From: a virus
Strand: one strand, 5' to 3'
IMG/VR virus record: IMGVR_UViG_3300045988_159113
DNA: 64,000 nucleotides
The translations under genes and the position numbers were made by a program. The notes under the pieces are model-generated. The model saw only the letters and a program-made list of their open reading frames with translations, made no database searches and was not told the origin of the DNA. The number at the start of each line of letters is the position of its first letter. Position 1 is the stretch's first letter. Of the stretch, positions 23,565 to 56,544 are shown one piece after another.

Positions 23565-24513
23565 GTTTTATTATCTTTTTTATGACCGTATAAACGGAAA
23601 GATAATCAGATTAGATTTGTTTAACGCTAACCTATCAATAGGCGAAGCCGTTTCTGTGATGTTTCCATGGGCAATTGATGGGAGGCTTACACATAATGAT
23701 GGCGAAGTAGTGATGGCGATCAACAAACACAACCAAAGAACATATAAACGATATATTGAGAAGTTTAAAATCAGACCTCCGTACTATATCGAAAATGTGC
23801 TCGGCGTTCGTGGTATGATCAATGCTATTGTTACTTACAAAAGTAGGTCACTTTTGCTTAAAGAGTACATGCTTGTCGACAAGTATAATGATGTCGCTCC
23901 ATTCTTTGCTAAATATGACTATGCGAAGTTTAACATCTGTTATATGATAGGGCTTCACAAGTATATCTTGGACAATCAGATCATACGTCCTAGCAAACAT
24001 AATAGCGGAATGTTTAGCGTCATGATACTTGGTAAAAGCTATATCGCGAATGTTGTAGTTTCACTAGATCATTGCTTCCTTAACATAGAAGGTATATCAA
24101 ACGGAGCAGTCTTCAATCATTATAAAATAGGTAAATCAAAAGTCCTTGAAGTACTCAGGATAGACAAATGGTACGGAGACTGGCCAGAGACTACCGAAGA
24201 CAAGGTGTACGAGTTAATCAACTATATCAACGAGTGCAGAAGCTCAAGCACTAATCCTGATAAAGTTGAGATAAGCGGAAATGAAATCATCACAGATTTT
24301 GCTAGACTTGAAATAAAGCAAAGCAAAAATGGTAAATGGTATATCAGTGGCTCGCTCGAGAATATATTGAAATTGTTTCATATTGACGACCAAGTCGAGT
24401 TGAAGCAAATGGTCAATAACCTTTTCGGATCTAAGCGACGCGCTGGTGTATTCCCTGAACTTGATTCTCGTGATGATGTTATTAAACTAATCAAAGTAAC
24501 GCAACATGAATAG
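23554..24513 (+). CDS. tandem array member A11
   Basis: FKIRPPY; LHKYILDNQIIRP; DWPETTEDKVYELINYIN; KQSKNGKWYISGS; RAGVFPELDSRDDVIKLIKV. Ends in TAG. Confidence 0.8.
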   Translation: MTDKFYYLFYDRINGKIIRLDLFNANLSIGEAVSVMFPWAIDGRLTHNDGEVVMAINKHNQRTYKRYIEKFKIRPPYYIENVLGVRGMINAIVTYKSRSLLLKEYMLVDKYNDVAPFFAKYDYAKFNICYMIGLHKYILDNQIIRPSKHNSGMFSVMILGKSYIANVVVSLDHCFLNIEGISNGAVFNHYKIGKSKVLEVLRIDKWYGDWPETTEDKVYELINYINECRSSSTNPDKVEISGNEIITDFARLEIKQSKNGKWYISGSLENILKLFHIDDQVELKQMVNNLFGSKRRAGVFPELDSRDDVIKLIKVTQHE

Positions 24514-25558
24514 AGAAACTGATTTCTTTTATCTATTTTACAATAGAACCAACAAATACTTGGTACAGTTGGATCTGTTGAGTAATTACTCGGAGAATAT
24601 ATCTTGTCGAACAGTAGATGGCGATAAGTACAAGCTGTATGGCAAGTATTTCAAAGCAGAGGATGAGTTTATCCAAGCTGTTAATGATTTCAATGTGTCG
24701 ATGGCTCAAAAGTATTTTAGCAAGTTCAAGATTCTTGCACCGTATAGATTAGAGTGTCAGCTCTTATTCTATATAGACGGAGGGGCAGACTACAACATAT
24801 ACATCTCAACACATGACAGATGCTATCGTTTCATTTATGGCAAGGAAACGCCTGCAAACTTTATAGAATTTGCACGTATCCGCAATATAGAGCCGGGGAC
24901 TTTCAATCTTCGCTATATGCTGAACCTACATACTGCACTTTTGAACTCTGCAGTGTTCAGGGCTGGATATGACAGGGGCAAGTTCTGTTATACTGTAAAC
25001 TGTGGAGAAAATTCTTTCTGTGCTCATATCGCGAAGTCAAGAGTAAGAGCTGGCTGTTATTTCCTAGCCTTTAGTCCTAATATTCCGAATGACTACGTCT
25101 TCGCGTATTACAACGTCAATAGGCAAAACATCAAGGATCTCTTGACTGTAGACTCCTGGACCGGAAAGTGGCCCGAGGATGTCGAGTCGACAATCTACGC
25201 GATCATGCAGTATATGAACAGAACATATATCGCAAATGCCAATTTTAGTTTTGTAATAGATGATGATGCTGTCATGTTCAACGGTACCAGATACCCATTC
25301 AAACAAGCAAAGAAGGGAGGCTGGTTCTTGTCTGGCAATATTGAGAAGATACTTCAGATGTTCGGTCTTGATAGTGTCGACTCATTACGTAAGACAGCGA
25401 ACCTATATCTTGGAGCAAAGAACAGACCGGGAGTTTTCCCAGAATGCGACACAAAAGAAGAGTTGATAAACTTGATTAAAATGTTCAAAGATGGAGAGCG
25501 AAAAATCAAAATTTCCGGTTCTTCTGTACTTCGATCCATGCAGCCGGATGATCTATAA
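24506..25558 (+). CDS. tandem array member A12 (C-terminal extension overlapping A13 by 68 nt)
   Basis: FKILAPY; LHTALLNSAVFRA; KWPEDVESTIYAIMQYMN; KQAKKGGWFLSGN; RPGVFPECDTKEELINLIKMF. An extra 20-odd residues follow the point where the other members stop. Confidence 0.8.
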   Translation: MNRETDFFYLFYNRTNKYLVQLDLLSNYSENISCRTVDGDKYKLYGKYFKAEDEFIQAVNDFNVSMAQKYFSKFKILAPYRLECQLLFYIDGGADYNIYISTHDRCYRFIYGKETPANFIEFARIRNIEPGTFNLRYMLNLHTALLNSAVFRAGYDRGKFCYTVNCGENSFCAHIAKSRVRAGCYFLAFSPNIPNDYVFAYYNVNRQNIKDLLTVDSWTGKWPEDVESTIYAIMQYMNRTYIANANFSFVIDDDAVMFNGTRYPFKQAKKGGWFLSGNIEKILQMFGLDSVDSLRKTANLYLGAKNRPGVFPECDTKEELINLIKMFKDGERKIKISGSSVLRSMQPDDL

Positions 25559-26510
25559 GTTCCCGCTTATCTGGACAACGGACATAGAACACTTGAAGTT
25601 CGAGATACTTATTGAAGAACTCGGATCAAGTACTGTATGGTTTCGTGGTATGAAATATGAGAACACGGAGGAACTCCTGCGTTTTATATCCAAAGAGAAC
25701 GAGAAGACGCGTAAAAAGTATAAAGAGAAATATGGCATTTTTCCGCCATATGTTATTACTCAATGTACTTTTAACACGACTTATTCAATTTGTATTAGAA
25801 CGCACAATTGCGAAAACTATGCTGTGTTTTTATTTGAAGATGGGGAAAAGCTTCCTGAGTGTATTGCAAATGGAGAAGTTCCTGTTTTTCGCAATGCAGA
25901 AATTAAAGCTAGCGATAGGTTTAATATTAAAACACTCATCAAGTTGCATAACTCCATCGTCTCAAATTATGTAGTACGTCCTGCGATTTATTTGGATTGT
26001 TGTGATAGGTATGTTGCAAAAATAAACGGCACGCTTTATGATGCTAGGATTGTTAGAGTTGCTGATAATACTTTCTATTTACAGTTTTTCACGATTCCCA
26101 GCATAAAACTTTTTAAGTATTATGACATAAAGTTTACAGAATACGAGCCTATCATATCTCATGACTTCCGTTTGATGGATGGCTATATCCCTGTGGATAA
26201 TAAAGAGCACATCCTAAAAATTCTTGACTTCATCAATAGTAAGCGCTGTGCTATGGAGTATGCATCGTTTACTATCAAAAGCGATACTATCCTAAGTAAT
26301 GGATGTATGTTCAAGATAGTCCAAACGCCAACTGGCAAGTGGTACATAAAGGGTAAGAGTGACGACTTCCCTAAGGTGTTCAAGTGCTCAAGTATGGAGG
26401 AGATCAGAGAGTTTGCGATCAAGCTATTCGGGCGAAGGATTACTGGAGTATTCCCAGAGTGCAACACCAGGGAAGAGTTGTTAACTTTAATCGAGAAGAT
26501 GAAGAAATGA
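25491..26510 (+). CDS. tandem array member A13
   Basis: YGIFPPY; LHNSIVSNYVVRP; IPVDNKEHILKILDFIN; VQTPTGKWYIKGK; ITGVFPECNTREELLTLIEKM. Confidence 0.8.
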   Translation: MESEKSKFPVLLYFDPCSRMIYKFPLIWTTDIEHLKFEILIEELGSSTVWFRGMKYENTEELLRFISKENEKTRKKYKEKYGIFPPYVITQCTFNTTYSICIRTHNCENYAVFLFEDGEKLPECIANGEVPVFRNAEIKASDRFNIKTLIKLHNSIVSNYVVRPAIYLDCCDRYVAKINGTLYDARIVRVADNTFYLQFFTIPSIKLFKYYDIKFTEYEPIISHDFRLMDGYIPVDNKEHILKILDFINSKRCAMEYASFTIKSDTILSNGCMFKIVQTPTGKWYIKGKSDDFPKVFKCSSMEEIREFAIKLFGRRITGVFPECNTREELLTLIEKMKK

Positions 26511-27532
26511 TAATCCAACTTTTAGAAGAACCGACTTATCTATACTTTGACCAGATGGTGATGAAAGTCTACCAGCTGCCAATAATGCATACGATACAGT
26601 TGTCGGCTGTTGAAGTTTACAACGTACGACATCCTCAAGGCATCATGTCAATGCGCGAACGAGAAGTTGACCTATGGTTTCGAGATGCGCATTACAACAC
26701 GATCGGTGATCTCTTGAAGTATATAAACAAGAGAAACGAGAGAATGTTCAAATATTACGTTGAGAAATTCGGAATTTCTCCTGCTTACTTTTTGGACCAA
26801 GAAGCTGATGCGGATAATGTAGTCATTACCACTATTGTAACACATCTCGATTCTTACCGTTTTGAATGTGATGGTCGGATAGATTATGAAATAATAGAGA
26901 AGACTATTCCCGTTTTCAGTTATGCAGACATCAAAGAAGATGACCGTTTTGGCGCAGAAGTTCTGGTGAAGATGCACAACTCCATCATCAAAAACCAGGT
27001 GATAAAACCCACCATATACAAGAACGTTTACACCGTAAGAATGGGCGATTTGTTTGCAAAAGCAAAAATCGATACGATGGATATAGGTAGGGTGCCTGGC
27101 TATCATTTGCATTTTCTATCTTATCATGATAGGATTGTTTTTGATTATTACCACATACGATATTCTGACTTTGCTTATGTGATCCCTGATACCGAATTGA
27201 GTAACGGGATACCTGTTGGCCCAGAAGAAGATATCAGAAAGCTCATCAACTATATCAATATGACATATTGCGTTTGTGAGGGCTCAAAGTTTAGTGTGAA
27301 TGATAATATTATCATCTGCAATAAGCACAAGCTTGAAATTACACAAACGCGAAACGGCAAATGGTATATCAAGGGTGATGTTTTACTCGCTTTTGGGTTG
27401 GATAGTATGGAGGCAATCAGAAAGGCTGCGTCTGATCTCTTCGGTAAAAAGAGGATGAACGGAGTATTCCCGGAATGCGATTCCAAGGAAGACCTCCTGC
27501 GACTCGTTGAAGTTCTTAGAAAATACAGGTGA
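26507..27532 (+). CDS. tandem array member A14 (last)
   Basis: Start set at the ATG at 26507 (ATGA overlap; MIIQLLEEPTYLYFDQ matches the N-termini of A10-A13). FGISPAY; MHNSIIKNQVIKP; TQTRNGKWYIKGD; MNGVFPECDSKEDLLRLVEVL. Confidence 0.8.
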   Translation: MIIQLLEEPTYLYFDQMVMKVYQLPIMHTIQLSAVEVYNVRHPQGIMSMREREVDLWFRDAHYNTIGDLLKYINKRNERMFKYYVEKFGISPAYFLDQEADADNVVITTIVTHLDSYRFECDGRIDYEIIEKTIPVFSYADIKEDDRFGAEVLVKMHNSIIKNQVIKPTIYKNVYTVRMGDLFAKAKIDTMDIGRVPGYHLHFLSYHDRIVFDYYHIRYSDFAYVIPDTELSNGIPVGPEEDIRKLINYINMTYCVCEGSKFSVNDNIIICNKHKLEITQTRNGKWYIKGDVLLAFGLDSMEAIRKAASDLFGKKRMNGVFPECDSKEDLLRLVEVLRKYR

Positions 27533-34228: not shown

Positions 34229-35593
34229 ATTTGTGGCATTTTTGGATACATAAAGTCTAAACCAGAACCGTTTGACTTTATGGAGTTCTGCACTTTAGGA
34301 GTGCATAACGATACAAGAGGAAAAGATTCTGTCGGTATTTATATCGATGGACAAACTGAGTATTATTGTAAGGGCAAGAACAATAGCCTGTTCTCGGAGT
34401 TTATCTCCAAGAGCAGGCTATTGCAGTCTGTAGAGGTTGCACAAGTTGCATATGGTCATGACCGTGCAGCTTCCATTGGCACCGTATCTATTGAGACTGC
34501 ACAGCCCGTAGTGTTAAAAGAAGATGACAAGATCACATATGTGCTTATGCACAATGGCACCATCTATAATTATGAGGATCTAGCCAAAAAGTATATTCCA
34601 GATGTGGATATCAAGGGGATGACTGATTCCCAGGTTATGGCGCGCATATTCTACAAAGCAGGATATGATGCACTCAATGAATATATCGGTGGTGCCGTGT
34701 TTGCCATTATCGATTACCGCGGAGAAAAACCAAAGTATCTATTCTGGCAAGGGCACAGTAAGAACACGCAGTATTCACAAACCAGCCAGCAGGAAGAACG
34801 CCCGCTGTTCTTCTTGAAGAGTAAAGGCGAGATGATGTTTTCATCTCTTGATACATATCTTGACGCATTCAGGAGACAATCAACAAAGTTGGTGCCGACT
34901 CCAAACTTGCTGATAGAGTATGATCCAGAGACTGAGGAGTTTATCTCACTTGAAGAGTATGACAGGAAGAATTGCTTTCAGACTAAGCCATACGTCGCAA
35001 CCACTACCACATATTACGGAAACAACAACTATGGAAGTAGTACGTGTAATTATAGCCATAGCACTAATCGCGGCACTTCTTGCTATTCAAGCGGTTATGT
35101 AAACACAGACACGCACACCGGACAATGTCGCAGAGGCGCAAGTCTTTTGCATGGCAGCTATAGCATCAGCACCTATGGCAACATATCGGAAAGCGCCAAC
35201 CAGAACGGATCGAATTATATGACCATGTGGTTCTTCAATGGTATACTCATGAAGAACGAGCAAGCATTCATATATCTCACAAAGTTCTGTAAGGAGTGCG
35301 GCATTAGTATTGATGAGTGTTTCAAATGGTATGATGACTTGGTTTATTATCTCTCGCCTTACCCTTATCGCGAGAAGAAGATCGGAGGAATTCCCTTCAT
35401 GTTCAAAACCAATGATCCCGCAGGCGGTGAAGAGTACACAGGAGATGTACTTTATCCGTTTTCTACATACTCCAAGCGATATGTTAATGGTTCCTATGTA
35501 TCAACAAGGACATCAACATTTATCGAATCGCTTGAAGCGTATAACAAAACAAAAGACGATAAGTTAGATATAGACGTTTTAATGAAAGTATAA
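34229..35593 (+). CDS. Ntn-type (class II) glutamine amidotransferase domain protein with a C-terminal extension; apparent ATT start
   Basis: (ATT)-CGIFGYIKS..., RGKDSVGI, MHNGTIYNYEDL, MTDSQVMARIF. The only codons between the upstream in-frame TAA (34199..34201) and Cys are ctt tta gaa aag aaa gag agg tct att att. Confidence 0.7.
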   Translation: MCGIFGYIKSKPEPFDFMEFCTLGVHNDTRGKDSVGIYIDGQTEYYCKGKNNSLFSEFISKSRLLQSVEVAQVAYGHDRAASIGTVSIETAQPVVLKEDDKITYVLMHNGTIYNYEDLAKKYIPDVDIKGMTDSQVMARIFYKAGYDALNEYIGGAVFAIIDYRGEKPKYLFWQGHSKNTQYSQTSQQEERPLFFLKSKGEMMFSSLDTYLDAFRRQSTKLVPTPNLLIEYDPETEEFISLEEYDRKNCFQTKPYVATTTTYYGNNNYGSSTCNYSHSTNRGTSCYSSGYVNTDTHTGQCRRGASLLHGSYSISTYGNISESANQNGSNYMTMWFFNGILMKNEQAFIYLTKFCKECGISIDECFKWYDDLVYYLSPYPYREKKIGGIPFMFKTNDPAGGEEYTGDVLYPFSTYSKRYVNGSYVSTRTSTFIESLEAYNKTKDDKLDIDVLMKV

Positions 35594-36811
35594 ATGGCAG
35601 AAATTATTTCAGATTTTAAGAATGGCGCTCCTGTTATTGCAAGGGGAACAGAGTTTGTAGACAACAAAGTTGCACTTTTACACGACAAGAAGAGGTCAAC
35701 AAAAATGTTGGTAGAGGTCTCAGAAAAGACTCTCCCGTATATAGCATTTGCTAATACGATGGGTGCATATGTGATCAAGTCGCAGTATACCGAGGATGAG
35801 CTTTTCTATCTTATGAACACTATGGGAACCGGCAGTTTCCCGTATACATTCGAGAGGCGATACGAAGCAATGGACAGCTTCAACCTCTTCAATGGTCATG
35901 AGGTGATAGAGAAGGATATCGAATTTGAACTGGCTAAGTTCATGCCTTACACTTTTGGTATTGAGTACGAAACGTCTATGGGATATATTCCTCAGGATGT
36001 TTGTTTCAGAAATGGTCTCATCCCTTTGAGGGATGGGTCCATCTCTGGCTTGGAGTATTCAACAACCGTGATGCAGGGAAACGATGGACTCAATCTTGTC
36101 TATCAGCAGCTTGAGGCTCTGCGTAAGTTTACCTATTTCAACAAGGAGTGTTCCCTTCATGTTCATATGGGAGGCTATCCTATTGATCCTATGGCGATCT
36201 ATGCCTTATATAGAGTTTGCTATTTCTTGCAGGAAGAGATGGCAGAGTTCTTGCCCGACTGGACTTTCGAGACTTCCAAGTATAAGAAGAGCGGGAAGGA
36301 CTATTGCCATAAGCTCGCAAACTACAAGACATTTGGCGAGCTCTATGAGAATATCGCACAGCAGAAGTTCATGGGAAGCCTGGAGCAGCCGCATCCAAGA
36401 GATGAGGAGAGAAGCCATAAGTGGGATTGCACAAGCAGATACACATGCGTCAACTTGTTGAACCTCATGTGTTATGACAAGTGCAAGACTGCGGAGTTCC
36501 GATTCCTGCGTCCTACCTATAACTTCAAGAAGATCTATTACTGGCTCGCAATCTTCAATGCCATACTCAAGTATAGCGAAGACCTCTTCGCTAAGAGTGA
36601 CAAGACAGAGAAGGGTATCGAGCAGTTGATCTATGACGACAACACCTCCATCTATCTAATTGCCAGCTCGGTTTATCCCAAACCTCTGGCAGATAAGATC
36701 GAGGATTTCGTCAACAAGCTGTATGTAGCAGTAGGTAATCAGAGAACAAACGGTGATCTCTATGGCAAAGATACGGCTATTGAGGATGCCATTATCGGGA
36801 CCAGGTTATGA
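35594..36811 (+). CDS. Amidoligase_2-family (glutamine synthetase-like) amidoligase
   Basis: FGIEYETSMGYIP...RDGSISGLEYST...CSLHVHMGGYP...AEFRFLRPT. Confidence 0.65.
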   Translation: MAEIISDFKNGAPVIARGTEFVDNKVALLHDKKRSTKMLVEVSEKTLPYIAFANTMGAYVIKSQYTEDELFYLMNTMGTGSFPYTFERRYEAMDSFNLFNGHEVIEKDIEFELAKFMPYTFGIEYETSMGYIPQDVCFRNGLIPLRDGSISGLEYSTTVMQGNDGLNLVYQQLEALRKFTYFNKECSLHVHMGGYPIDPMAIYALYRVCYFLQEEMAEFLPDWTFETSKYKKSGKDYCHKLANYKTFGELYENIAQQKFMGSLEQPHPRDEERSHKWDCTSRYTCVNLLNLMCYDKCKTAEFRFLRPTYNFKKIYYWLAIFNAILKYSEDLFAKSDKTEKGIEQLIYDDNTSIYLIASSVYPKPLADKIEDFVNKLYVAVGNQRTNGDLYGKDTAIEDAIIGTRL

Positions 36812-38822: not shown

Positions 38823-39748
38823 TGAACAAAACAGTTATGACAATTATGGAAAACAAGCTGAACAGCGCGAAAGAGTCTCGTAATGATGTAGTGAATACAG
38901 AAGCACAGGATATTACAAAATTCGTGTGGAAGGGACAGAAGGAAGATATCGAAGGTGTACGATATCAGGGAGAGATTAGAATGGTTGACGCGTCTGATGA
39001 ACAGCTATCCATATTTTACAAGCATTGCCAGTCGATGCTGTACAATACAGATTCTAACAATCCGGGAAGGACAGTTCTGATTAAGATGATCCAGGAGGAT
39101 CGCGAGAAGTGTAACGCTGAGCTGTATATGCGTTACCTTGATGGGACCTATCTTCCAGATGAGAAGAGAGCAAGATATCCTCGGTTTATGTATCTTTCTG
39201 ATCTCAATAAATACCTCAGCCGCAACACCGACAAGTACGCGCCTGGTAGTTATGACAAGATTGAGATTTCAGAATTTACCGAAGGGATACCTGTCGAATT
39301 CTCTAACTTAAAAATATCAATGGTTAAGGATGCCTGTGAAGGTGTGCTTGGTAAGATCCACAAAAAGCCTATCACTCTGACGTTCTTGACGCGAATGGGA
39401 ATTTGGCTTTCTCCTGATGAGATGCGAGATCTCACAGAGAAAGACCCGAAGACTGGAAAGGTTCGTGATCGCATGGAAGTCATCCGTGAGAGGTTGGGAT
39501 TGAAGCAGACAATCCGTCTGCATGTAAATGAGACAGGACTCACATATAAGGAGTTTATGTCTATGGTGACGTTAAAGGAACAGACATTCAACAACCTCAC
39601 AACTAACCAGCTTATCATTCTAAGGGAGAAGATCCTTTTCCGTGTGGAGAATATGATCAGCTATCAGATTGATTTCTGGATGAATAAGATGAGAGAGTTG
39701 GAGCTTGTCGCAAATTCTCATGGTTGGAGCTTTGAAAAGGAAGATTAA
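38822..39748 (+). CDS. hypothetical protein
   Basis: ORF 38786..39748. The ATG at 38822 forms a TAATG overlap. Confidence 0.6.
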   Translation: MNKTVMTIMENKLNSAKESRNDVVNTEAQDITKFVWKGQKEDIEGVRYQGEIRMVDASDEQLSIFYKHCQSMLYNTDSNNPGRTVLIKMIQEDREKCNAELYMRYLDGTYLPDEKRARYPRFMYLSDLNKYLSRNTDKYAPGSYDKIEISEFTEGIPVEFSNLKISMVKDACEGVLGKIHKKPITLTFLTRMGIWLSPDEMRDLTEKDPKTGKVRDRMEVIRERLGLKQTIRLHVNETGLTYKEFMSMVTLKEQTFNNLTTNQLIILREKILFRVENMISYQIDFWMNKMRELELVANSHGWSFEKED

Positions 39749-39837
39749 TGACAAGAAGTGAGAGACAGGAGTTGTGCGTTGACAATTGGATACGCGCAGG
39801 AGGACGGGCCGCCATCGTGGGCAGCACTGGGTTCGGT
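39748..39837 (+). CDS. SF2 (ResIII/DEAH-type) helicase, exon 1 (30 codons ending ...IVGSTGFG)
   Basis: TAATG-coupled ATG. MTRSERQELCVDNWIRAGGRAAIVGSTGFG supplies the first half of Walker A. The frame then hits TAA after 6 codons. Confidence 0.6.
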
Positions 39838-40042
39838 GACTTGTTGCCGTTCCGATAAAGAAATTTTCGGAATTATCATTGGGTGAAATCGGCGAATCAC
39901 AGGAACGCCGAGATTTAAATATTGTACAGCGTAAAGATTGAAATAACATCTTCAAGAGCATCCAACACCGTATAGGTGAAAACGTACGCGGAAGAACCCC
40001 AGAAGTGGGTGATTGGATAAAAAGCCAATCTGAAAATCTTTG
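39838..40042 (+). ncRNA. candidate group I-like self-splicing intron (205 nt) interrupting the helicase Walker A motif
   Basis: Removal joins TGFG to KTRVAILAI. Exon 1 ends in U and the element ends in G. Stops occur in all three frames. Several 5-6 bp local helices are visible by eye. Confidence 0.5.
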
Positions 40043-41200
40043 AAAACCCGAGTCGCTATCCTGGCAATTAAGCGCGTCCTTACAAAATATCCTGACTTCA
40101 AAACTCTTGTGGTTGTCCCTTCTACAAACCTAAAAGACCAATGGGAAGAAAACCTGAGACAATGGAATCTCGAAAAGTCATGTGTCGTTCGTGTGATTAA
40201 TACGGTCATCATGCATAGGTGGAAATGTGATATTCTTATCATAGATGAGTTACATCTTATACCTAGCGAGAACCGCATCAGTGTATTCAACAAGGTCGAG
40301 TATAAACTCGTGCTCGGCCTTACCGCAACCTATGAAAGGCTAGATGGCAGGGAGTCATTACTGGATAGATACTGTCCAGTATGTGATGAAATAACAATGT
40401 CTGATGTTATAGCTAACCACTGGGTGGCAGACTATGTTGAATATGAGGTTCTCATAGATGTGGATAATCTCAGCGAGTACGAGGAGATACAAAGAAAATG
40501 GACTCAACACTTCGAGTTCTTCTCGTTTGATTTCCAGCTTATGATGAAAATGAATGGGCCAGAAGGTTTTAAGTGCAGGCAAGAGTTCGCAAAAGCTCTA
40601 TGTACTAAACCCGCACAGTATAAAGAGATGCTGAAAACTGTAACGCTCCATGCTATAGGAGCAATGCAAGCAATGCAACAGAAAAAAGCATTTCTGAATA
40701 ACCATTCAAAAAAGATCGAGCTCACACGGAAGATAATCGAAGCACGACCTAATGCGAAGATCATAACCTTCTCAAACAATATAAAGATGGCGGAAGCTAT
40801 CGGTATTGGTGGAGTGGTTAGTGGTAAAGAATCGAAGAAGAAGAACCGGACAACACTTGAAAAATTCGCCAAAGCAGATAGTGGAGTTGTGAATAGCAGC
40901 AAACTGTTGGTAGCTGGTGCGGATATTCCAGGTGTTAATTGTCTTATCATCCTCGGGCACGATTCAAGCACTACAAGAGCAACGCAAGCAAGAGGTCGAG
41001 GCATACGTGTTGAAGGTGATAAGTTCACGGAAATTTTTAATCTTGTTATCAATGATACGCAAGAAACGAAATGGTGTGAATCAGCCCACAAGAATTCTGA
41101 AATGGTCAGGATTGATGAGGCTAATCTTGAAAAGGTTTTGAAGCATGAGCCTTTCGAAACCTATAAGAGACCACTCGAAAAGTTTAACTATAGATTTTGA
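40043..41200 (+). CDS. SF2 (ResIII/DEAH-type) helicase, exon 2
   Basis: KTRVAILAI (rest of Walker A), ILIIDELHLI (DExH), LGLTATYER (motif III), QARGRGIR (motif VI). No ATG is available; the ORF track used the TTG at 40040. Confidence 0.75.
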   Translation, partial: KTRVAILAIKRVLTKYPDFKTLVVVPSTNLKDQWEENLRQWNLEKSCVVRVINTVIMHRWKCDILIIDELHLIPSENRISVFNKVEYKLVLGLTATYERLDGRESLLDRYCPVCDEITMSDVIANHWVADYVEYEVLIDVDNLSEYEEIQRKWTQHFEFFSFDFQLMMKMNGPEGFKCRQEFAKALCTKPAQYKEMLKTVTLHAIGAMQAMQQKKAFLNNHSKKIELTRKIIEARPNAKIITFSNNIKMAEAIGIGGVVSGKESKKKNRTTLEKFAKADSGVVNSSKLLVAGADIPGVNCLIILGHDSSTTRATQARGRGIRVEGDKFTEIFNLVINDTQETKWCESAHKNSEMVRIDEANLEKVLKHEPFETYKRPLEKFNYRF

Positions 41201-41405: not shown

Positions 41406-42023
41406 GTGCTGACTTATACTTTAACATTCGAAAATGAGCTCGCAGCGATGCGACGCTATGGAATAACACCAGACGAGTTATATATTGCGCGTTTGATCCT
41501 GATGTGTAAAGATTCAAGTATAGGTGTCAACTATATGAATCAATACCTCGAGACGTCAGAAGACGCAAGAAAAATAGTTCGTCCAGTGTTGAAGAACTTA
41601 CAAGAAAAGGGAATCATTCTCAAATCTTTCGATCCAGAACAGGAGAAGATTGTTCCAGCAGATATACCGTTCAATAAAAACGCGACTAAGTTTTTCTATC
41701 GTGCAGCGTTTGATATGGGAAAAGAACTTTTCGATGTCTATCCCAAGTATGCAATGATAGATGGAAACTGCGTTTCTATTTCCGGTGTCAGCAAACGGTT
41801 CAACTCTCAAGAAGACGCATTCAATTTCTACGGTCGAGAGATTAGATGGAACCCAGAAACTCACAACCATATTGTAGAGATTACAAAATGGGCAGCTGAG
41901 AATACAAGAATGATAAATTGCGTGTTTAGTAGTTATATCATCGACCATAGATGGGAATTCATCGAGTCGATGAGAAACGGCGAACAGGGCAACGTTAATT
42001 TTGACACAATTCGTATGCTCTGA
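41406..42023 (+). CDS. hypothetical protein (position suggests a replication-associated role)
   Basis: 205-aa ORF with a GTG start. Its stop overlaps the DnaB-like helicase start. Confidence 0.55.
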   Translation: MLTYTLTFENELAAMRRYGITPDELYIARLILMCKDSSIGVNYMNQYLETSEDARKIVRPVLKNLQEKGIILKSFDPEQEKIVPADIPFNKNATKFFYRAAFDMGKELFDVYPKYAMIDGNCVSISGVSKRFNSQEDAFNFYGREIRWNPETHNHIVEITKWAAENTRMINCVFSSYIIDHRWEFIESMRNGEQGNVNFDTIRML

Positions 42024-43111
42024 TGGTCGTTGATTCACTACTTGCACAAATAGAAAATGGACGAGCTGGTCATAGTCAAGGGATAAGTATGGGCCTGCCT
42101 AAATTGGAGGGCATCATTGACGGAGTAACCAGACAAACATATAGCATTGTTTTCGGCCAAAGTTCGACAGGTAAGACGAGTTTGGCTATTTATGCTTATG
42201 TTTATCGTCCATGCATGGAACATTTAGAAGACGAAGATTTCCACGTGATCTATTACTCGTTAGAGATCAGCGCCGAATTACTAATGGCGAAATTATTATC
42301 CATTTATATCTTCGAGAAGTATCACGTGGAACTCTCAACAAAAGATATCCTATCACGCACAAAAGGCGGACTTTTGTCTGATGAATATTTTCATATCGTC
42401 GAAGAATGTATCCCATGGCTGCGAAGAATAGAAAGTATGATTACGATTTTCGATGGCTCTTTGAATGCTCAGACTTTATATTCAACGCTCGTAAATGAGC
42501 TAGCAAAAGCCGGGCAGTTCGTGGAGGAAGAGGGAAGGAAAAAATACATCCCTAATAATCCCAAACAAATTGTCGTCGTGGTTATTGATCATATGAATCT
42601 ATTGACACATACAATGGGGCGAACAATCAAACAAGAGATTGACCTAGCAAGTCAACAGCTTGTTGGCCTCAGGAATATGTGCGGAATCTCCCCTGTTGCT
42701 ATCATGCAGGCAAACAGGGACTCTATGTCTATGTCTCGCCGTGATATGTTAGGCTCTGGCGACTGTCGGATTTCAGATATCCGAGACAGTGCTGGCCCCT
42801 CACAAGACGCGGAAATAGTTATCGGTATATATAACCCGTTTAGGGATAAGATCGCTAATTATAGAGGCTATGACATCAAACAATTGCAGGATGTATTCAG
42901 AAGTATCACCGTATTGAAAAATCGATATGGTGAATCAGAAGTTGCTGATTGCATTTGTTTCTACGGTAAGATCGGGATGTTTGTTGAACCGCCAACACCC
43001 GACAAGATTTATGATTACAGTAAGTTCCAAAGTCCGCTATGGACATTGGAACCAAAACAAGATGAAGAAAATGAAGATGATAAACCTAAAACTTTAAACT
43101 TTACGTTATGA
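42023..43111 (+). CDS. DnaB-like replicative helicase (RecA-fold C-terminal domain)
   Basis: GISMGLPKLE...IVFGQSSTGKTSLAIY (Walker A), VVVIDHMNLL (Walker B), IMQANRD. Confidence 0.75.
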   Translation: MVVDSLLAQIENGRAGHSQGISMGLPKLEGIIDGVTRQTYSIVFGQSSTGKTSLAIYAYVYRPCMEHLEDEDFHVIYYSLEISAELLMAKLLSIYIFEKYHVELSTKDILSRTKGGLLSDEYFHIVEECIPWLRRIESMITIFDGSLNAQTLYSTLVNELAKAGQFVEEEGRKKYIPNNPKQIVVVVIDHMNLLTHTMGRTIKQEIDLASQQLVGLRNMCGISPVAIMQANRDSMSMSRRDMLGSGDCRISDIRDSAGPSQDAEIVIGIYNPFRDKIANYRGYDIKQLQDVFRSITVLKNRYGESEVADCICFYGKIGMFVEPPTPDKIYDYSKFQSPLWTLEPKQDEENEDDKPKTLNFTL

Positions 43112-48395: not shown

Positions 48396-50828
48396 ATGCC
48401 TAGGCAGGAAGGAAAAACAGACATTTTTGTCAACGACTTATTGCGTAAGTCAGGGATCAGTCTCTCATCACAAGATGCAGATATAAATATTGACCTAAGG
48501 GATGCGTTGCAAACTGCATCCAAGAATGGGACAGGCAATATAGGCTATCCTGATTATTGTGGAATTGTCAACGGGTATGTCTTCGTTATAGAAGATAAGG
48601 CGAGCGTTTACGATCACGCCAAGTATCTTGACGATAAAGAGACAGAACTTGATATGTCCCAGCAAGCCATCAAGAAGTACGCACTCAATGGTGCTGTTCA
48701 TTATGCCATTAAGATAATGGCAAGTGCACCGTATGAGCAACTGTTCGGTTTTGGAGTTTCCGGAAATGAAGATGGGTATCGTATCACTCCGTTCTTTCTA
48801 AGATCGAGAGAAACGAAACCTATGATTCTTGAACCAGTCAATGATTTCAACTCATTCTCTCATAGCAATATCGGAACGTATTATTGTATGAATGTTTTGA
48901 AAGAGGAGATTGATGTGAATAAAACAGAAGAAGAAATACAGAGAGATGCAGCAGAACTTCATGAGTTCTTGCGAAGTTATGGATCTCTTACAACAGAACA
49001 GAAGCCAATAATTGTTTCTGGAATTTTGATTGCTTTATCTGAAATTGATTACAAGAATTTTGACATTAATACTTTGATTTGTGATAAAACATCAAGTGAT
49101 GGAGAAAAGATTTTTGTAGCAATTAAAAAGGCACTCAAAAGAATTTCTGTTGAAAATAGTTTAATACTTCGACAGTTCTCGCTCATCGCTTCTAACATTC
49201 AAATCAACACAACAAATTCAAAACTTGGCAAGACTCCGCTAAGATTTTTCACTGAGTTTTTATACAATCGTATTTTCAAAAACATAAAATACGTTGCATC
49301 TCCTACAGATTTCATTGGTAGATTTTATAATGAATTCATATCATATTCTGGTGGAGACGGTCAGACTTTGGGTATCATTTTGACGCCTACACATATCACA
49401 CAACTCTTTTGTGATCTTGTTAACCTTACAGATAAGGATAAAGTATTCGATCCATGTTGCGGAACTGGTGGGTTCTTGATTGCTGCTTTACATAACATGA
49501 TAGAGAAAAGCGGAAAGACAGACGAGGAAGTACGAAGGATTAAAAACAACCAGCTGTTCGGCATTGAAATGCAAGACTATATGTACACAGTTGGTTTTAC
49601 TAATCTATTGTTGCGTAGTTGTAACACAAACAATTTGATTTGTGATAGTTTTTTCAACATCAATACTAATCATTTATCAGGAAATGGATTCACTGTTGGA
49701 ATGATTAATCCTCCTTATTCTCAAGGCTCATCTAAAGATAAAACGCTATATGAAATTAATTTCATATTTCGTATGCTTGGATGTTTAGCACCAGGAGCTA
49801 GGGGAATTGCAATTGTTCCACAATCTACAATGGTTGGAAATTCAAAAGCTGAACTTGAAATCAAAAGAGAAATTCTTGAACGCCATACTTTAGAGGGAGT
49901 GATTACTTTAAATCCTCAGACATTCTTCGGTGTGGGAGTTAATCCTTGTATCTGTATATTTACAGCAGGAACTCCACACAGAAAGGACAAGTTTGTCAAG
50001 TTTATTGATTTTACTGACGATGGATATGTTGCAGAACCAAAACGTGGATTGGTTAAAACTGAAAGTGCAGATGCTAAAAAAGCACATATGTTACAAGTGT
50101 GGAATGACGAAATTGTTGATGATGATATATGTGTGAAACATAAAATAAATTTTAATGATGATTGGATTTACAATGCTCAAAAAAACAATGAACTAAATTT
50201 AATAAATGAATTATTTGTTCCATATAAAGAAAAAGAAGAATTAACAAAAATAATATCAAAGTTAGACACCTTAATTTTATCAAAGCCAAATATTCCGAGG
50301 CCAACAATAGTAGGAAAAGCTACTGCCGATTTTCATATTGATCAAATATTTGATGTGAAAATGTCGAAGTCTATAAATAATAACAAATTAAACAGTACAC
50401 CTGGAAATATTCCATATATTACAAGGACAGGATTAAATAACGGCATCCTGAAATTTGTATGTGAACAGGGAATCGAAAAACTTAATCCTGGCAATGTCAT
50501 AACAATTGGGGTAGATACACAAACTGTATTCTATCAAAAACAAGCTTTCTATTGTGGAAACAATGTTCTTTCTTTATCATCCGAAAACGTTGATCAATAC
50601 ATCGGCGTTTTCATAGTTGGGATATTAGACCAGATTGTAAAAAAGAAATACAACTATGGATATGGCGCAACATTAACAAGGATTAAAAATCTCGAAATCC
50701 CTCTTCCCATCACTTCCGACGGAAAGCCAGACTGGGAATTTATGTCTGACTATATAAAAACACAATTTCAAATTGTATTTGAGGAAGAACTGAAACGACT
50801 AAAATCTAAACTCGATGAGTGGTATTGA
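48396..50828 (+). CDS. single-chain restriction-modification enzyme (MmeI-like type IIG/IIL): PD-ExK nuclease + gamma-class N6-adenine MTase + TRD
   Basis: GYPDYCGIVNGYVFVIEDKAS (PD...EDK), VFDPCCGTGGFLIA (SAM motif I), GMINPPYSQG (motif IV NPPY). The C-terminal ~230 aa are HsdS-like TRD (GNIPYITRTGLNNG...). Confidence 0.7.
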   Translation: MPRQEGKTDIFVNDLLRKSGISLSSQDADINIDLRDALQTASKNGTGNIGYPDYCGIVNGYVFVIEDKASVYDHAKYLDDKETELDMSQQAIKKYALNGAVHYAIKIMASAPYEQLFGFGVSGNEDGYRITPFFLRSRETKPMILEPVNDFNSFSHSNIGTYYCMNVLKEEIDVNKTEEEIQRDAAELHEFLRSYGSLTTEQKPIIVSGILIALSEIDYKNFDINTLICDKTSSDGEKIFVAIKKALKRISVENSLILRQFSLIASNIQINTTNSKLGKTPLRFFTEFLYNRIFKNIKYVASPTDFIGRFYNEFISYSGGDGQTLGIILTPTHITQLFCDLVNLTDKDKVFDPCCGTGGFLIAALHNMIEKSGKTDEEVRRIKNNQLFGIEMQDYMYTVGFTNLLLRSCNTNNLICDSFFNINTNHLSGNGFTVGMINPPYSQGSSKDKTLYEINFIFRMLGCLAPGARGIAIVPQSTMVGNSKAELEIKREILERHTLEGVITLNPQTFFGVGVNPCICIFTAGTPHRKDKFVKFIDFTDDGYVAEPKRGLVKTESADAKKAHMLQVWNDEIVDDDICVKHKINFNDDWIYNAQKNNELNLINELFVPYKEKEELTKIISKLDTLILSKPNIPRPTIVGKATADFHIDQIFDVKMSKSINNNKLNSTPGNIPYITRTGLNNGILKFVCEQGIEKLNPGNVITIGVDTQTVFYQKQAFYCGNNVLSLSSENVDQYIGVFIVGILDQIVKKKYNYGYGATLTRIKNLEIPLPITSDGKPDWEFMSDYIKTQFQIVFEEELKRLKSKLDEWY

Positions 50829-54438: not shown

Positions 54439-56544
54439 ATGAAAGTAAAAAAGAGGAATGGAGAATTGCAGGATTTTGACTTCAACAAAATTCGGTGTGC
54501 CGTTATGAAAGCCTTTGAGGAGTGCGGTGTTCAGCTGTCGAAATATGAAGAAAAAGACCTATTCGAGTCTATAGAAGACAAGATCCCTAACTTAGAGAAA
54601 AACGGAGTAGTTGATCTTGAGGATATACAAAACTTGAATGAAAGCCAGCTGATGTTTTGGGGATACTATGACGTAGCTAAGGCGTATATCATATACAGGT
54701 ATAATAGGGCGCTATTGAGAAAAGAAAACAGTACTGACCAATCAGTCGCTCAACTGATCGATGGAACCAATGAATACTGGAATAAGGAAAACGCAAACAA
54801 GAGAGCAGAGCGTACAAGTACACAGCGCGACTATGTGGCAGGCATTACATCAACAGATGTAGCACGTCGTTTGATATTGCCAGAGGATGTAATAAAGGCG
54901 CACGATGAGGGCATTATCCATTTTCATGATATTGATTATCTTATCCATAAAGGGGAGACAAATTGCAGTCTTATCAATTTGCAGGACATGCTTGATAATG
55001 GCACAGTTATCAATGACATCAAGATCGAAAGCCCGCATCGTTTCCTTACAGCATGCACTATAGCAACCCAGATAATCATGGGAGTAGCATCCAATCAATA
55101 CGGAGGTTGTACTATAAGCATTGCACACCTTGCACCTTATCTTAGGAAGTCAAAAAAGTACTATCAGAAAAAGTATCCAGAACAAGCGAATCTGTTATAC
55201 AAAAAAGAGCTTGAAGATGGAGTCCAGACTTTCAACTATCAGGTAAACAGCATGTCAGCATCAACTGGCCAGTCGCCGTTCTTAACTGTACATATCGATC
55301 TTGAGGAAATCCCGGAATACACGCAAGAGATCTATGAGATTGCAATGGAATTTTTAAGTCAGAGAATTTTGGGATTTAAAAATAAACTCGGTGTTTATAT
55401 AACACCGACATTTCCAAAAATCATCGTTGTCCTCAGAGATAAGTATTTCGAAAAAGACATTGACGAGAAGACTAAGGCTTTTATTCATAAGTGCGCAGAA
55501 TGTACGGCGTTACGTATGGTTCCTGATTATATGTCCGAGAAGCTTATGATGAAGTACAAGGGCGCAGTTGTTCCAGCGATGGGTTGTCGCTCGCTACTGA
55601 AGCCTATGTGGATAGATGGGAAACTCAAACTTTGGGGCAGGTTTAACCTTGGAGTTTGTACTCTTAACCTTCCACATGTTGCCTATTCGTCAGGTGGAGA
55701 TTTTGATAAGTTCTGGGAATTGATGGATGAGCGCACAGAGCTCATACGTAAGGCTCAGCTTGTACGTGTCAATAGAATTGCAAACTCTACAACTGATGTT
55801 GCACCTCTTCTTTGGCAGCATGGAGCATTTGCTAGATTACCTGAACATACAAAGCTTAGCCAAATAATCTATGGCGGTTATGCATCCATTAGTCTTGGAT
55901 ATGCTGGACTTTATGAATGTGTAAAGATCATGACAGGAGAAAGCCAGAGTGGGAACGAAGGCTATAAGTTCGCCGAGCAAGTCATGGCTTATCTTGATAA
56001 TAAGACCAAGAAGTGGACAGAACTTGATAATCTCGGCTGGAGCGTTTACGGAACTCCTATCGAGTCGACTACCTGGAAGTTTGCAAAGTCTTTGAAGAAG
56101 TTCGGATATGATCGTGAATACATCACGAATAGTATCCATATTCCAGTCTTTGAAAACATTGATCCATTTAAGAAATTAGAGATTGAAGGAAAGCTTCAGG
56201 TATACAGTACAGGCGGTAATGTGAATTACATAGAGAGCGCCAACATGCGAAAGAATCCTGACGCTATTATCGATGTTATGAAGGCTATAAATGACCACTG
56301 CCTCTATGCTGAGATAAACGGAAAAAATGATTTCTGTGAAGCTTGTGGATCTACAGAAGAGCAGCAGCTCGACGATGACGGAAATTGGTTCTGTCCTGTG
56401 TGTGGATGTACCGACTCATCCAAGCTATACCATCCTCGCCGAATTTGTGGATATATCCAAGTCGGCGATGTAAATAAAGGCAGAGCTGGAGATATCAAAA
56501 ACCGTTTTGTACATTTAGACAATAGAACATATGAACAGGTATAA
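54439..56544 (+). CDS. nrdD: anaerobic ribonucleoside-triphosphate reductase (class III)
   Basis: N-terminal ATP-cone (VKKRNGELQDFDFNKIRCAVMKAF). C-terminal Zn site CEACG...CPVCG and glycyl-radical motif RRICGYI. Confidence 0.9.
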   Translation: MKVKKRNGELQDFDFNKIRCAVMKAFEECGVQLSKYEEKDLFESIEDKIPNLEKNGVVDLEDIQNLNESQLMFWGYYDVAKAYIIYRYNRALLRKENSTDQSVAQLIDGTNEYWNKENANKRAERTSTQRDYVAGITSTDVARRLILPEDVIKAHDEGIIHFHDIDYLIHKGETNCSLINLQDMLDNGTVINDIKIESPHRFLTACTIATQIIMGVASNQYGGCTISIAHLAPYLRKSKKYYQKKYPEQANLLYKKELEDGVQTFNYQVNSMSASTGQSPFLTVHIDLEEIPEYTQEIYEIAMEFLSQRILGFKNKLGVYITPTFPKIIVVLRDKYFEKDIDEKTKAFIHKCAECTALRMVPDYMSEKLMMKYKGAVVPAMGCRSLLKPMWIDGKLKLWGRFNLGVCTLNLPHVAYSSGGDFDKFWELMDERTELIRKAQLVRVNRIANSTTDVAPLLWQHGAFARLPEHTKLSQIIYGGYASISLGYAGLYECVKIMTGESQSGNEGYKFAEQVMAYLDNKTKKWTELDNLGWSVYGTPIESTTWKFAKSLKKFGYDREYITNSIHIPVFENIDPFKKLEIEGKLQVYSTGGNVNYIESANMRKNPDAIIDVMKAINDHCLYAEINGKNDFCEACGSTEEQQLDDDGNWFCPVCGCTDSSKLYHPRRICGYIQVGDVNKGRAGDIKNRFVHLDNRTYEQV

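What the first reader, a model, noticed from the sequence alone, without database searches (positions are those of the whole stretch)
39838..40042. 205-nt structured insertion splitting the Walker A motif of the SF2 helicase: candidate group I-like intron
Seen in the sequence:
- A 30-codon ORF starts at a TAATG-coupled ATG (39748) and ends ...AIVGSTGFG.
- The large helicase ORF has no ATG and begins (L)KTRVAILAIKRVL.
- Deleting 39838..40042 (205 nt, which shifts the frame by +1 as required) restores STGFG-KTRVAILAI, a textbook (A/S)TGxGKT P-loop.
- The insert has stops in all three frames, so it is not an intein.
- The last exon-1 base is U (39837) and the last insert base is G (40042), as required for group I splicing.
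- 5'-CGGU-3' at the exon end can pair with GCCG at insert nt 9-12, giving the U-G wobble of a P1 helix.
- Several local helices are visible: UUCCGA/UCGGAA (nt 13-18/30-35), UCGGCG/CGCCGA (52-57/69-74), AAGAU/AUCUU (97-101/111-115), ACCC/GGGU (159-162/170-173), GAUUGG/CCAAUC (174-179/188-193).

Established knowledge: group I introns are known in phage nucleotide-metabolism and replication genes, and some ORF-less ones are about this size.

I could not derive a complete P3-P9 fold by hand.
Basis: partly seen in the sequence, partly recalled or inferred. Interest (0 to 1): 0.8.

Follow-up and report, generated by a model that had tools for sequence, protein, structure and literature searches.

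The report
Small group I intron in phage helicase
The 205-base insert that splits the ATP-binding motif of this phage helicase gene is a genuine but ordinary self-splicing group I intron that has lost its homing-endonuclease gene, one of a large family of such introns in phage genomes.

Summary
Removing window 39838..40042 joins 30 codons (..STGFG) to KTRVAIL.. and gives a 415-aa SF2 helicase. Near-identical phages encode that helicase without interruption.

Related phages carry three other states at the same site:
- an empty site;
- a 1095-nt version with a GIY-YIG endonuclease gene in the P1 loop, whose last ~197 nt match the window insert;
- more distant versions with a LAGLIDADG gene or none.

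A covariance model built from four relatives hits the window insert at E 1e-31. It also hits more than 100 other phage loci. Across 103 members, 95.6% of cells pair and 53 of 60 pairs show compensatory changes. The fold has group I topology:
- P1 with a U.G pair at the splice site;
- P2, and the P3/P7 pseudoknot;
- P4-P5, P7.1, P8, P9 and P9.1;
- a P7 with a bulged A/C next to an invariant G-C;
- a terminal G.

Rfam finds nothing, but it also misses the T4 td intron. The window copy is a reduced core that lacks P6.

Four independent assemblies carry this mini-intron. Their helicase exons remain under purifying selection, so splicing is likely, though untested.

It is a new member of a known kind.

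The parts
39748..39837 (+). Exon 1 of the SF2 helicase gene (30 codons, MTRSERQ..AIVGSTGFG); last base U
   Evidence: Identical or near-identical to codons 1-30 of the uninterrupted homologues.
39838..40042 (+). Group I intron, 205 nt, with no intact ORF (homing-endonuclease-less derivative)
   Evidence: Model R1 hits 39846..40042 at 118.8 bits, E 1e-31. Empty-site alleles are L001, L004, L005, L006 and L009. The endonuclease-carrying version is in L008.
39834..39849 (+). P1 hairpin: exon CGGU plus intron GA pair with UUGCCG (guide sequence, insert nt 7-12). U39837.G39846 is the wobble pair at the 5' splice site, and the loop is CUUG. UU of the guide can also pair with the first AA of exon 2 (P10).
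   Evidence: Read directly from the sequence and present in the MFE fold. GCCG is the commonest guide sequence in the family. Guide-exon complementarity with a U.G pair 7-13 nt upstream is found in ORF-less members with other guide sequences, 26/80 against 11.7 expected.
39846..39941 (+). Remnant of the C-terminal 31 codons plus stop of the GIY-YIG endonuclease ORF (AVPIKKFSELSLGEIGESQERRDLNIVQRKD*), overlapping P2-P7 of the ribozyme
   Evidence: Frame 2 of the insert equals the end of the 306-aa ORF L008 2980..3900, which is GIY-YIG plus NUMOD1.
39850..39872 (+). P2 hairpin (UUCCGA / UCGGAA)
   Evidence: All 7 P2 pairs show compensatory changes in the family (helix 1). 6/7 pairs form in the window.
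39879..39885 (+). P3 5' strand (UUGGGUG), followed by J3/4 AAA (39886-39888)
   Evidence: Pairs with 39959..39965. 7/7 pairs form in the window, and all 7 show compensatory changes in the family.
39889..39911 (+). P4 (UCGGCG / CGCCGA) enclosing a vestigial 2-bp P5
   Evidence: helices 3 and 4. In the window P4 forms 6/6 pairs and P5 forms 2/4.
39912..39926 (+). 15-nt linker GAUUUAAAUAUUGUA in the place where other family members have an 8-bp P6 hairpin; P6 is absent here
   Evidence: P6 forms 0/8 pairs in the window and in L008, and is also absent in L122.
39927..39933 (+). P7 5' strand: C, bulged A, then GCGUA. G39929-C39989 is the predicted guanosine-binding pair.
   Evidence: Pairs with 39985..39990. 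P7 was not part of the model yet is 100% paired in 101 sequences. The outer pair is GC 55 / AU 35 / CG 10, and the bulge is A 67 / C 36.
39934..39952 (+). P7.1 hairpin (AAGAU / AUCUU) between P7 and P3'
   Evidence: helix 7: 99.8% paired, and 5/5 pairs show compensatory changes.
39959..39965 (+). P3 3' strand (CAUCCAA), closing the P3/P7 pseudoknot
   Evidence: helix 2. The window has G.U where its closest relatives have G-C.
39966..39978 (+). P8 hairpin (CACC / GGUG), followed by J8/7 AAAACG (39979-39984)
   Evidence: helix 8: 98% paired, and 4/4 pairs show compensatory changes.
39985..39990 (+). P7 3' strand (UACGCG)
39996..40010 (+). Shortened P9 hairpin (ACCC / GGGU)
   Evidence: The stem is constant while its loop varies among the five closest copies. 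The family P9 is 7 bp with compensatory changes (helix 9).
40011..40030 (+). P9.1 hairpin (GAUUGG / CCAAUC) with the family-wide loop AUAAAAAG
   Evidence: helix 10: 99.8% paired, and 6/6 pairs show compensatory changes. Consensus.
40031..40042 (+). 3' tail UGAAAAUCUUUG ending in the terminal G (omega G, 40042)
   Evidence: The last aligned base is G in 82/103 family members. The tail departs from the family consensus GAUAACA.
40043..41200 (+). Exon 2 of the SF2 helicase gene (KTRVAIL.. to the stop codon)

Best explanation
[quoted passage not shown] It lies in the Walker A (P-loop) codons of a phage SF2 helicase gene, between GGU (Gly30) and AAA (Lys31).

Origin (shown by comparison):
- It descends from a mobile intron whose GIY-YIG homing-endonuclease gene sat in the loop of P1 and read through into the ribozyme core.
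- That gene has been deleted. What remains is a 6-bp P1 hairpin with a CUUG loop, plus a ~197-nt core.

Inferred mechanism:
- The helicase mRNA is transcribed with the intron.
- The guide sequence UUGCCG pairs with the exon end CGGU, forming the U.G wobble at the splice site.
- Free guanosine bound at the G-C pair of P7, next to the bulged A, attacks after U39837.
- The terminal G40042 then takes the guanosine site. Exon 1 attacks after it and the exons are joined to read STGFG-KTRVAIL.

What is shown: the family fold, the exact boundaries, the empty and endonuclease-bearing alleles, and purifying selection on the exons.

What is inferred: that this reduced copy, which lacks P6, still splices, and whether it does so alone or with help.
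For: 1. Exact site. Five uninterrupted alleles (96-100% protein identity) read ..TTCGGA|AAAACC.. at this position.

2. Same site, other states.
- L008 holds a 1095-nt intron whose 306-aa ORF is GIY-YIG plus NUMOD1 and whose 3' ~197 nt match the window insert.
- L003 holds a 1162-nt version.
- L016 holds an independent endonuclease-less ~330-nt version.
- L011 holds a LAGLIDADG version.
- L013 holds one 6 nt upstream, after the other GGU of the P-loop.

3. Structure.
- Model R1, built without the window sequence, hits the insert at 118.8 bits, E 1e-31, end to end.
- On 103 members, 95.6% of cells pair, against 65.5% when shuffled and 32-42% when slid. 53/60 pairs show changes on both sides.
- P7 was left out of the model, yet it is 100% paired with GC/AU/CG at its outer pair and a bulged A/C.

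4. Splice-site rules.
- All occupied alleles have U at -1 (GGT) and all five empty alleles have A (GGA).
- The intron ends in G.
- Guide-exon complementarity with a U.G pair recurs 7-13 nt upstream in ORF-less members with other guide sequences.

5. Function retained.
- The mini-intron occurs in three further independent assemblies.
- Its few differences fall in loops, a G.U/G-C switch and one terminal pair.
- The spliced helicase differs by 19-35 nt but only 1-3 residues, with no stop.

6. Precedent. Small group I introns averaging ~206 nt are abundant in Bacteroides-infecting jumbo gut phages, with splicing seen in metatranscriptomes (PMC12880540).
Against: - No Rfam Intron_gpI match at any threshold, in the window or in 15 family loci. 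This is weakened by the failed positive control on T4 td.
- The window/L008 lineage has the most reduced core of the family. P6 is absent, P5 is 2 bp and P9 is 4 bp. The 3' tail departs from the otherwise 86-99% conserved GAUAACA. P4-P6 is normally the scaffold domain of group I introns (PMC3984707).
- The single-sequence fold energy is unremarkable (z = -1.5).
- No RNA data were examined, so splicing is not shown.
- The four inner P7 pairs were largely fixed by the DNA pattern used to collect loci, so their invariance is not independent evidence.
- R1 matches the T4 td intron only marginally (E 0.03).
Confidence: 0.9

Rival explanations
1. The insert is a dead intron remnant. The deletion that removed the endonuclease gene, or the earlier loss of P6, destroyed splicing, so the helicase gene in this phage is a recently inactivated, dispensable pseudogene.
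For: - P6 is absent, and P5 and P9 are minimal.
- The 3' tail is atypical.
- The element has no endonuclease and could be on its way to loss.
- Closely related phages live without the intron.
Against: - The same P6-less core sits next to an intact 306-aa endonuclease ORF in L008.
- Four independent assemblies carry the mini-intron. Their exons differ by 19-35 nt but only 1-3 residues, without stops or frameshifts.
- Intron differences avoid the helices.
- P1 is a tidy hairpin with the U.G pair retained.
- Another family member (L122) also lacks P6.
Confidence: 0.07
2. The gene is truly split, or is decoded by ribosome bypassing. Either a 36-aa peptide and a 386-aa protein started at TTG 40040 assemble into a helicase, or ribosomes hop 205 nt.
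For: - A TTG lies one codon before Lys31.
- Genes split by endonuclease insertion, and the T4 gene 60 hop, are known in phages (my own knowledge).
Against: - The break lies inside GxGKT, so neither piece would have a P-loop.
- The insert is a conserved structured RNA with group I features and strict U(-1)/terminal-G boundaries. Neither a split gene nor a hop would require these.
- 205 nt is four times the only well-studied hop.
- No matching take-off and landing codons are present (GGU / UUG).
Confidence: 0.02
3. The insert is an assembly artefact or an unrelated small mobile DNA insertion (MITE-like) with no RNA function.
For: The junction was not found in IMG/VR or in the JGI metagenome contigs.
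Against: - It was found in three other independent assemblies.
- It has no terminal inverted repeats or target duplication at the boundaries.
- Family-wide RNA covariation is overwhelming.
Confidence: 0.01

Closest known systems
Phage group IA introns with GIY-YIG endonucleases, e.g. the T4 td intron encoding I-TevI
   Same: - Group I fold with an extra helix between P7 and P3' (P7.1).
- Located in a phage DNA-metabolism gene.
- The relatives' endonuclease is GIY-YIG plus NUMOD1, like I-TevI.
- R1's best hit in a 10-kb T4 region is the td intron's P8-P7'-P9-P9.1 segment.
- Both are missed by Rfam RF00028.
   Different: - The endonuclease ORF sits in the P1 loop and runs through P2-P7 into L7.1, rather than in the P6 loop.
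- There is no P7.2 and, in this copy, no P6.
- The window copy has lost the ORF and is 205 nt, against 1016 nt for td.
- Sequence similarity to td is marginal (E 0.03).
Small (~206 nt on average) group I introns of Bacteroides/Phocaeicola jumbo gut ('Jug') phages, and introns of crAss-like phages (PMC12880540)
   Same: - Short ORF-less group I introns, and endonuclease-bearing ones, interrupt essential genes of gut phages.
- Splicing is seen in metatranscriptomes.
- The family studied here also occurs in crAss-like records cr6_1, cr118_1 and cr7_1.
   Different: - The window's phage relatives are 117-197-kb contigs, not 360-402-kb Jug phages.
- I could not run the subtype models used in that paper, so identity of subfamily is untested.
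Azoarcus pre-tRNA-Ile intron (about 205 nt, subgroup IC3), the classic minimal natural group I ribozyme (my own knowledge)
   Same: About the same length, ORF-less and with a compact core.
   Different: It belongs to a different subgroup, lies in a tRNA anticodon loop, has a complete P4-P6 domain including P6, and has no P7.1.
Group I introns of Staphylococcus and Bacillus phages (terminase, endonuclease-associated loci)
   Same: blastn of a family core finds 69-77% identical stretches in Staphylococcus phages (ROSA, SA2 and others) and in Bacillus phage PJN02, next to HNH or other endonuclease genes.
   Different: The host genes and hosts differ. The matches are partial, and I did not fold those copies.

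Membership tests
Group I intron | P1 helix formed by the 5' exon end and an internal guide sequence, with a U.G wobble at the 5' splice site | tested here: met
   - CGGU|GA pairs with UUGCCG, giving U39837.G39846.
- All occupied alleles have U at -1 and all five empty alleles have A.
- Guide-exon complementarity appears with varied guide sequences in ORF-less members: 26/80 against 11.7 +- 2.9 expected, peaking at 7-13 nt.
Group I intron | Terminal guanosine (omega G) as the last intron nucleotide | tested here: met
   - G40042.
- G also ends the introns in L003, L008, L011, L013 and L016.
- 82/103 aligned family members end in G.
Group I intron | Conserved core order P3-P4-P5-P6-P7-P3'-P8-P7' with a P3/P7 pseudoknot | tested here: met
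   In the family, all of these helices are supported by compensatory changes, and P3 and P7 cross. In the window P3, P4, P7 and P8 are complete.
Group I intron | Complete P4-P6 scaffold domain (P4, P5, P6) | tested here: not met
   - The window and L008 have P4 (6 bp) and a 2-bp P5 but no P6. A 15-nt linker replaces the 8-bp hairpin present in most members.
- This feature is met by the family and not by this copy.
- L122 also lacks P6.
Group I intron | Guanosine-binding site in P7: a G-C pair adjacent to a bulged nucleotide | tested here: met
   - The sequence pattern is C-[A]-GCGUA / UACGC-G.
- The G-C pair is invariant and the bulge is A 67 / C 36.
- The flanking pair covaries GC/AU/CG.
- Binding itself is not testable here.
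Group I intron | Match to the curated covariance model (Rfam RF00028 Intron_gpI) | tested here: not met
   There is no hit at E<=10 on the window insert, on L003, or at gathering threshold on 15 family loci. The control also fails: T4 td gives no hit at E<=1 and T4 nrdB gives 35.7 bits against a threshold of 50. The test therefore has low sensitivity for phage IA-type introns.
Group I intron | GTP-dependent self-splicing that ligates the exons | not testable with these tools
   Only indirect evidence is available. In-silico ligation restores the exact 415-aa ORF, and the exons are under purifying selection in four carriers.
Subgroup IA of group I introns | Extra helices P7.1/P7.2 between P7 and P3' | tested here: inconclusive
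   One extra hairpin (P7.1) is present and strongly covarying (helix 7), but there is no P7.2. Subgroup-specific models (GISSD; Selles Vidal 2025, PMC11835236) were not available.
Mobile (homing) group I intron | Intron-encoded homing endonuclease, and empty versus occupied alleles with altered flanks | tested here: not met
   - The window copy has only a 31-codon remnant with no start codon.
- Relatives carry GIY-YIG or LAGLIDADG ORFs.
- Substitutions are about 3x denser within 30 nt of the site.
- This copy is therefore a non-autonomous descendant.

The most novel reading that the evidence does not exclude
The window/L008 lineage may be a naturally minimised group I ribozyme: a ~197-nt core with no P6, a 2-bp P5 and a re-written 3' tail that still splices in vivo.

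- A lineage-specific pairing could stand in for P6. Insert nt 74-79 (AGAUUU) are complementary to nt 197-202 (AAAUCU), just before the terminal G. This pairing is unsupported by covariation, because all copies are identical there.
- The family as a whole appears specialised for Walker A codons. The same guide sequence GCCG and the same target GGU|AAAAC are used in two unrelated helicase genes (SF2 and DnaB-like). 14 of 101 members sit immediately before K-T/K-S codons.
Probability: 0.3. Interest if true: 0.5.

Novelty: new member of a known kind. Interest (0 to 1): 0.3.

Why it matters
**Annotation.** The helicase here, and many other phage genes, are miscalled as a tiny ORF plus an N-terminally truncated protein. 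The standard Rfam model does not flag the intron. A family-specific model such as R1 recovers more than 100 copies in IMG/VR alone.

**Biology.** The locus captures the whole life cycle of a homing intron within near-identical phages: empty site, endonuclease-bearing intron, and endonuclease-less mini-intron. It also provides natural P6-less cores that could help define the minimal group I ribozyme. None of this changes what is known about how group I introns work.

Tried and rejected
- **Rfam scans.** The whole window at gathering threshold, 39600-40300 at E<=10, the L003 intron, and 15 family loci gave no Intron_gpI hit. I rejected this as evidence against a group I intron after the T4 td/nrdB control.
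- **blastn against GenBank phages.** Neither the 205-nt insert nor the 2.3-kb region gave a match.
- **Single-sequence folding.** z = -1.5, uninformative alone.
- **Exact junction search.** IMG/VR and the JGI metagenome contigs gave 0 hits. The allele was found instead through its 36-aa exon-1 ORF.
- **MAFFT alignment including the window sequence.** It misaligned P9/P9.1, so the model was built from four longer relatives.
- **First structure string.** It treated P3/P7 as nested and double-used one base. This was corrected.
- **Pattern hits as chance.** I suspected the 120 IMG/VR pattern hits might be chance, since about 100 are expected for 20 fixed bases with two gaps by my own rough estimate. 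I rejected this because R1 scores nearly all of them at E 1e-12 to 1e-66.
- **Position-by-position comparison of L138-L140.** It failed because of a 1-nt indel and was redone with an alignment.
- **Intein, split gene, bypassing and MITE.** All were considered and rejected (see rival explanations).

Full report
**1. The observation**

The sequence is as described.
- An ATG at 39748, overlapping the stop of the upstream ORF (TAATG), opens a reading frame whose first 30 codons end ..AIVGSTGFG at 39837. The frame then runs six more codons to a TAA.
- The long downstream ORF has no ATG and reads KTRVAILAIKRVL from 40043.
- The 205 nt between them have stops in all frames.
- Removing them gives a 415-aa protein with an intact STGFGKT P-loop that matches ResIII, DEAD and Helicase_C.
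- A protein search found uninterrupted 415-aa homologues at 96% and 73% identity. It also found several N-terminally truncated ones.

**2. The same site in relatives**

Empty alleles:
- The 96% homologue (L001) reads ..TTCGGA|AAAACCCGAGTC.. with nothing inserted.
- Four IMG/VR contigs with 99-100% identical helicases (L004, L005, L006, L009) are also empty.

Occupied alleles:
- L008 is a near-identical phage on a 197-kb contig. It has a 1095-nt insert at the same position, made of a 75-nt leader and a 306-aa ORF with GIY-YIG and NUMOD1 domains. The last ~197 nt of the insert (its 3' end, overlapping the C-terminal codons of that ORF) match window insert nt 9-205 almost exactly.
- Frame 2 of the window insert (AVPIKKFSELSLGEIGESQERRDLNIVQRKD*) is the C-terminus of that endonuclease. 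The window element is therefore a deletion derivative.
- An 81%-identical helicase (L003) has a 1162-nt version at the same site, with a GIY-YIG ORF that carries an in-frame TAG.
- L016 has an independent endonuclease-less derivative of about 330 nt.
- L011 (46% identity) has a LAGLIDADG ORF instead.
- L013 to L015 have the intron 6 nt upstream, after the other GGU of the P-loop, with a 61-aa ORF in a different loop.
- In every case the exon ends in U and the insert ends in G.

**3. The fold**

By hand the window insert folds as follows (insert numbering; add 39837 for window coordinates):

| Element | Position / sequence |
|---|---|
| P1 | exon CGGU + G1A2 with U7U8G9C10C11G12, loop CUUG |
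| P2 | 13-18 / 30-35 |
| P3 | 42-48 / 122-128 |
| J3/4 | AAA |
| P4 | 52-57 / 69-74, with a 2-bp P5 inside |
| P7 | C90, bulged A91, G92-A96 / U148-G153 |
| P7.1 | 97-101 / 111-115 |
| P8 | 129-132 / 138-141 |
| J8/7 | AAAACG |
| P9 | 159-162 / 170-173 |
| P9.1 | 174-179 / 188-193 |
| Terminal G | G205 |

- P3 and P7 cross, which is the group I pseudoknot.
- The P7 pattern C-[A]-G..UA / UA..C-G is the same as in the Tetrahymena intron (my own knowledge).
- L003, L011, L013 and L016 show compensatory changes in P2, P3, P4, P5, P6, P7.1, P8, P9 and P9.1.

**4. Family and covariation**

- I built covariance model R1 from four relatives, without the window sequence and without P7 because of the pseudoknot.
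- A DNA pattern from conserved stretches pulled at least 120 IMG/VR loci. R1 scores nearly all of them at E 1e-12 to 1e-66.
- R1 hits the window insert end to end at 118.8 bits, E 1e-31. This is the only hit in the window.
- On 103 aligned members, 95.6% of cells form standard pairs. The figure is 65.5% after shuffling and 32-42% with partners slid.
- 53 of 60 pairs change on both sides, and 0 of 500 shuffles reach any observed measure.
- P7 was not in the model, yet it is 100% paired. Its outer pair is GC 55, AU 35, CG 10 and the bulge is A or C.
- Caveat: the four inner P7 pairs were largely fixed by the retrieval pattern, and the other helices were aligned to the model.
- The guide sequence is supported too. 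In ORF-less members with varied guide sequences, a complementary exon end finishing in U lies 7-13 nt upstream more often than chance: 26/80 against 11.7 +- 2.9.

**5. Why Rfam is silent**

- RF00028 finds nothing in the window, in L003 or in 15 family loci.
- On the T4 td-nrdB region it also misses td entirely and scores nrdB at 35.7 bits, below its threshold of 50.
- The miss therefore says little.
- R1's best hit in that T4 region falls on the td intron's P8-P7'-P9-P9.1 segment, though only at E 0.03.

**6. Is this copy functional?**

Against:
- The window/L008 core is the most reduced in the family. P6 is missing, P5 and P9 are short, and the 3' tail is atypical.

For:
- The same core accompanies an intact endonuclease gene in L008.
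- L122 independently lacks P6.
- The mini-intron occurs in three more independent assemblies (L138 to L140). Among these copies the intron varies only in loops, at one G.U/G-C switch and at one terminal P3 pair.
- The spliced helicase differs by 19-35 nt but only 1-3 residues and has no stops.
- All occupied alleles have GGT and all five empty ones GGA at the last exon codon. Substitutions are about three times denser within 30 nt of the site. This fits the U requirement, co-conversion or endonuclease avoidance.

I put splicing competence at about 0.8 and group I identity at above 0.9.

**7. Comparison with what is known**

- The defining features of group I introns are those in the review PMC3984707: P1 to P10, the P4-P6 and P3-P9 domains, the G-binding site in P7, and the terminal G.
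- Small group I introns averaging ~206 nt, together with endonuclease genes, are reported in large numbers in Bacteroides-infecting jumbo gut phages. Splicing was confirmed for 37 of 76 by metatranscriptome reads. They are also reported as a feature of crAss-like phages (PMC12880540).
- A family core also matches crAss-like, Bacillus and Staphylococcus phage records.
- This is therefore a new member of a known kind.
- The mildly unusual points are the endonuclease ORF in the P1 loop reading through the core, the loss of P6, and the recurrent use of Walker A codons as a target.

**8. Verdict**

The phenomenon is ordinary for phages. Interest 0.3.

Noticed in passing
window 42150..42200 (DnaB-like gene 42023..43111); L008 6132..6380; L006 6223..7492; L007 2133..2381; L009 6223..6471: Close relatives carry a second intron of the same family in the Walker A codons of the DnaB-like helicase (..ACAGGT|intron|AAAACTTCA..), with a LAGLIDADG-motif ORF in L006. 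The window's copy of the gene is uninterrupted. Its four codons after the site are recoded synonymously (AAG ACG AGT TTG against AAA ACT TCA CTG). The guide sequence (GCC) and local target (GGU|AAAAC) are the same as in the SF2 helicase intron.
   Followed up: partly
window 14204..27532: There is a tandem array of about 13 head-to-tail paralogous genes of roughly 290-380 aa, 28-46% identical to one another. The one tested has no Pfam match. Function unknown.
   Followed up: partly
L008 7389..8387 (window position 43191) and L007 3685..4791 (window position 43486): Relatives have further insertions of about 1 kb relative to the window, in the gene(s) downstream of DnaB. R1 gives only a weak hit at L008 8220..8389 (E 0.004). 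These are probably other mobile elements or introns and were not examined.
   Followed up: no
L003 3790..4704: The GIY-YIG ORF of this intron contains an in-frame TAG (..GRSHNAHF*ASWNKYGEDAF..), yet one source calls it as a single 304-aa gene. It is either a decaying endonuclease gene or TAG recoding in this phage.
   Followed up: no
L013 2743..2928, and L013 6112..6364: The L013 helicase intron carries a 61-aa ORF with no Pfam match inside the P7.1 loop rather than in P1. The same locus has another family intron just upstream of its DnaB_C gene, next to a LAGLIDADG-like ORF.
   Followed up: no
A3 family alignment (IMG/VR loci L017-L136): 14 of 101 distinct family members are followed immediately by K-T or K-S codons, about 0.5 expected by chance. 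This suggests that P-loop codons are a recurrent insertion site for the family. Many loci hold two to four family introns within a few kb.
   Followed up: partly
L098 706..767, 5101..5171, 5617..5690: One unrelated IMG/VR locus fetched by the pattern search has Rfam hits above threshold to RAGATH-18 and to two twister-sister ribozymes.
   Followed up: no
window 48396..50828, 54439..56544, 57909..59255, 34280..36811: Context genes found by Pfam:
- an N6 DNA methylase fused to a type I specificity domain;
- an anaerobic ribonucleotide reductase NrdD with an ATP-cone, uninterrupted here;
- a PIF1/RecD-like SF1 helicase;
- a glutamine amidotransferase plus amidoligase pair.

All long ORFs of the window are on the + strand, and no tRNA genes were found.
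   Followed up: partly
window insert nt 74-79, 96-102, 111-115 and 197-204 (39911-39916, 39933-39939, 39948-39952, 40034-40041): The atypical 3' tail AAAUCUUU is complementary both to AGAUUU, which lies in the place of the missing P6, and to the 5' strand of P7.1. This could be a lineage-specific pairing or an alternative conformer. All available copies are identical here, so there is no covariation to test it.
   Followed up: no
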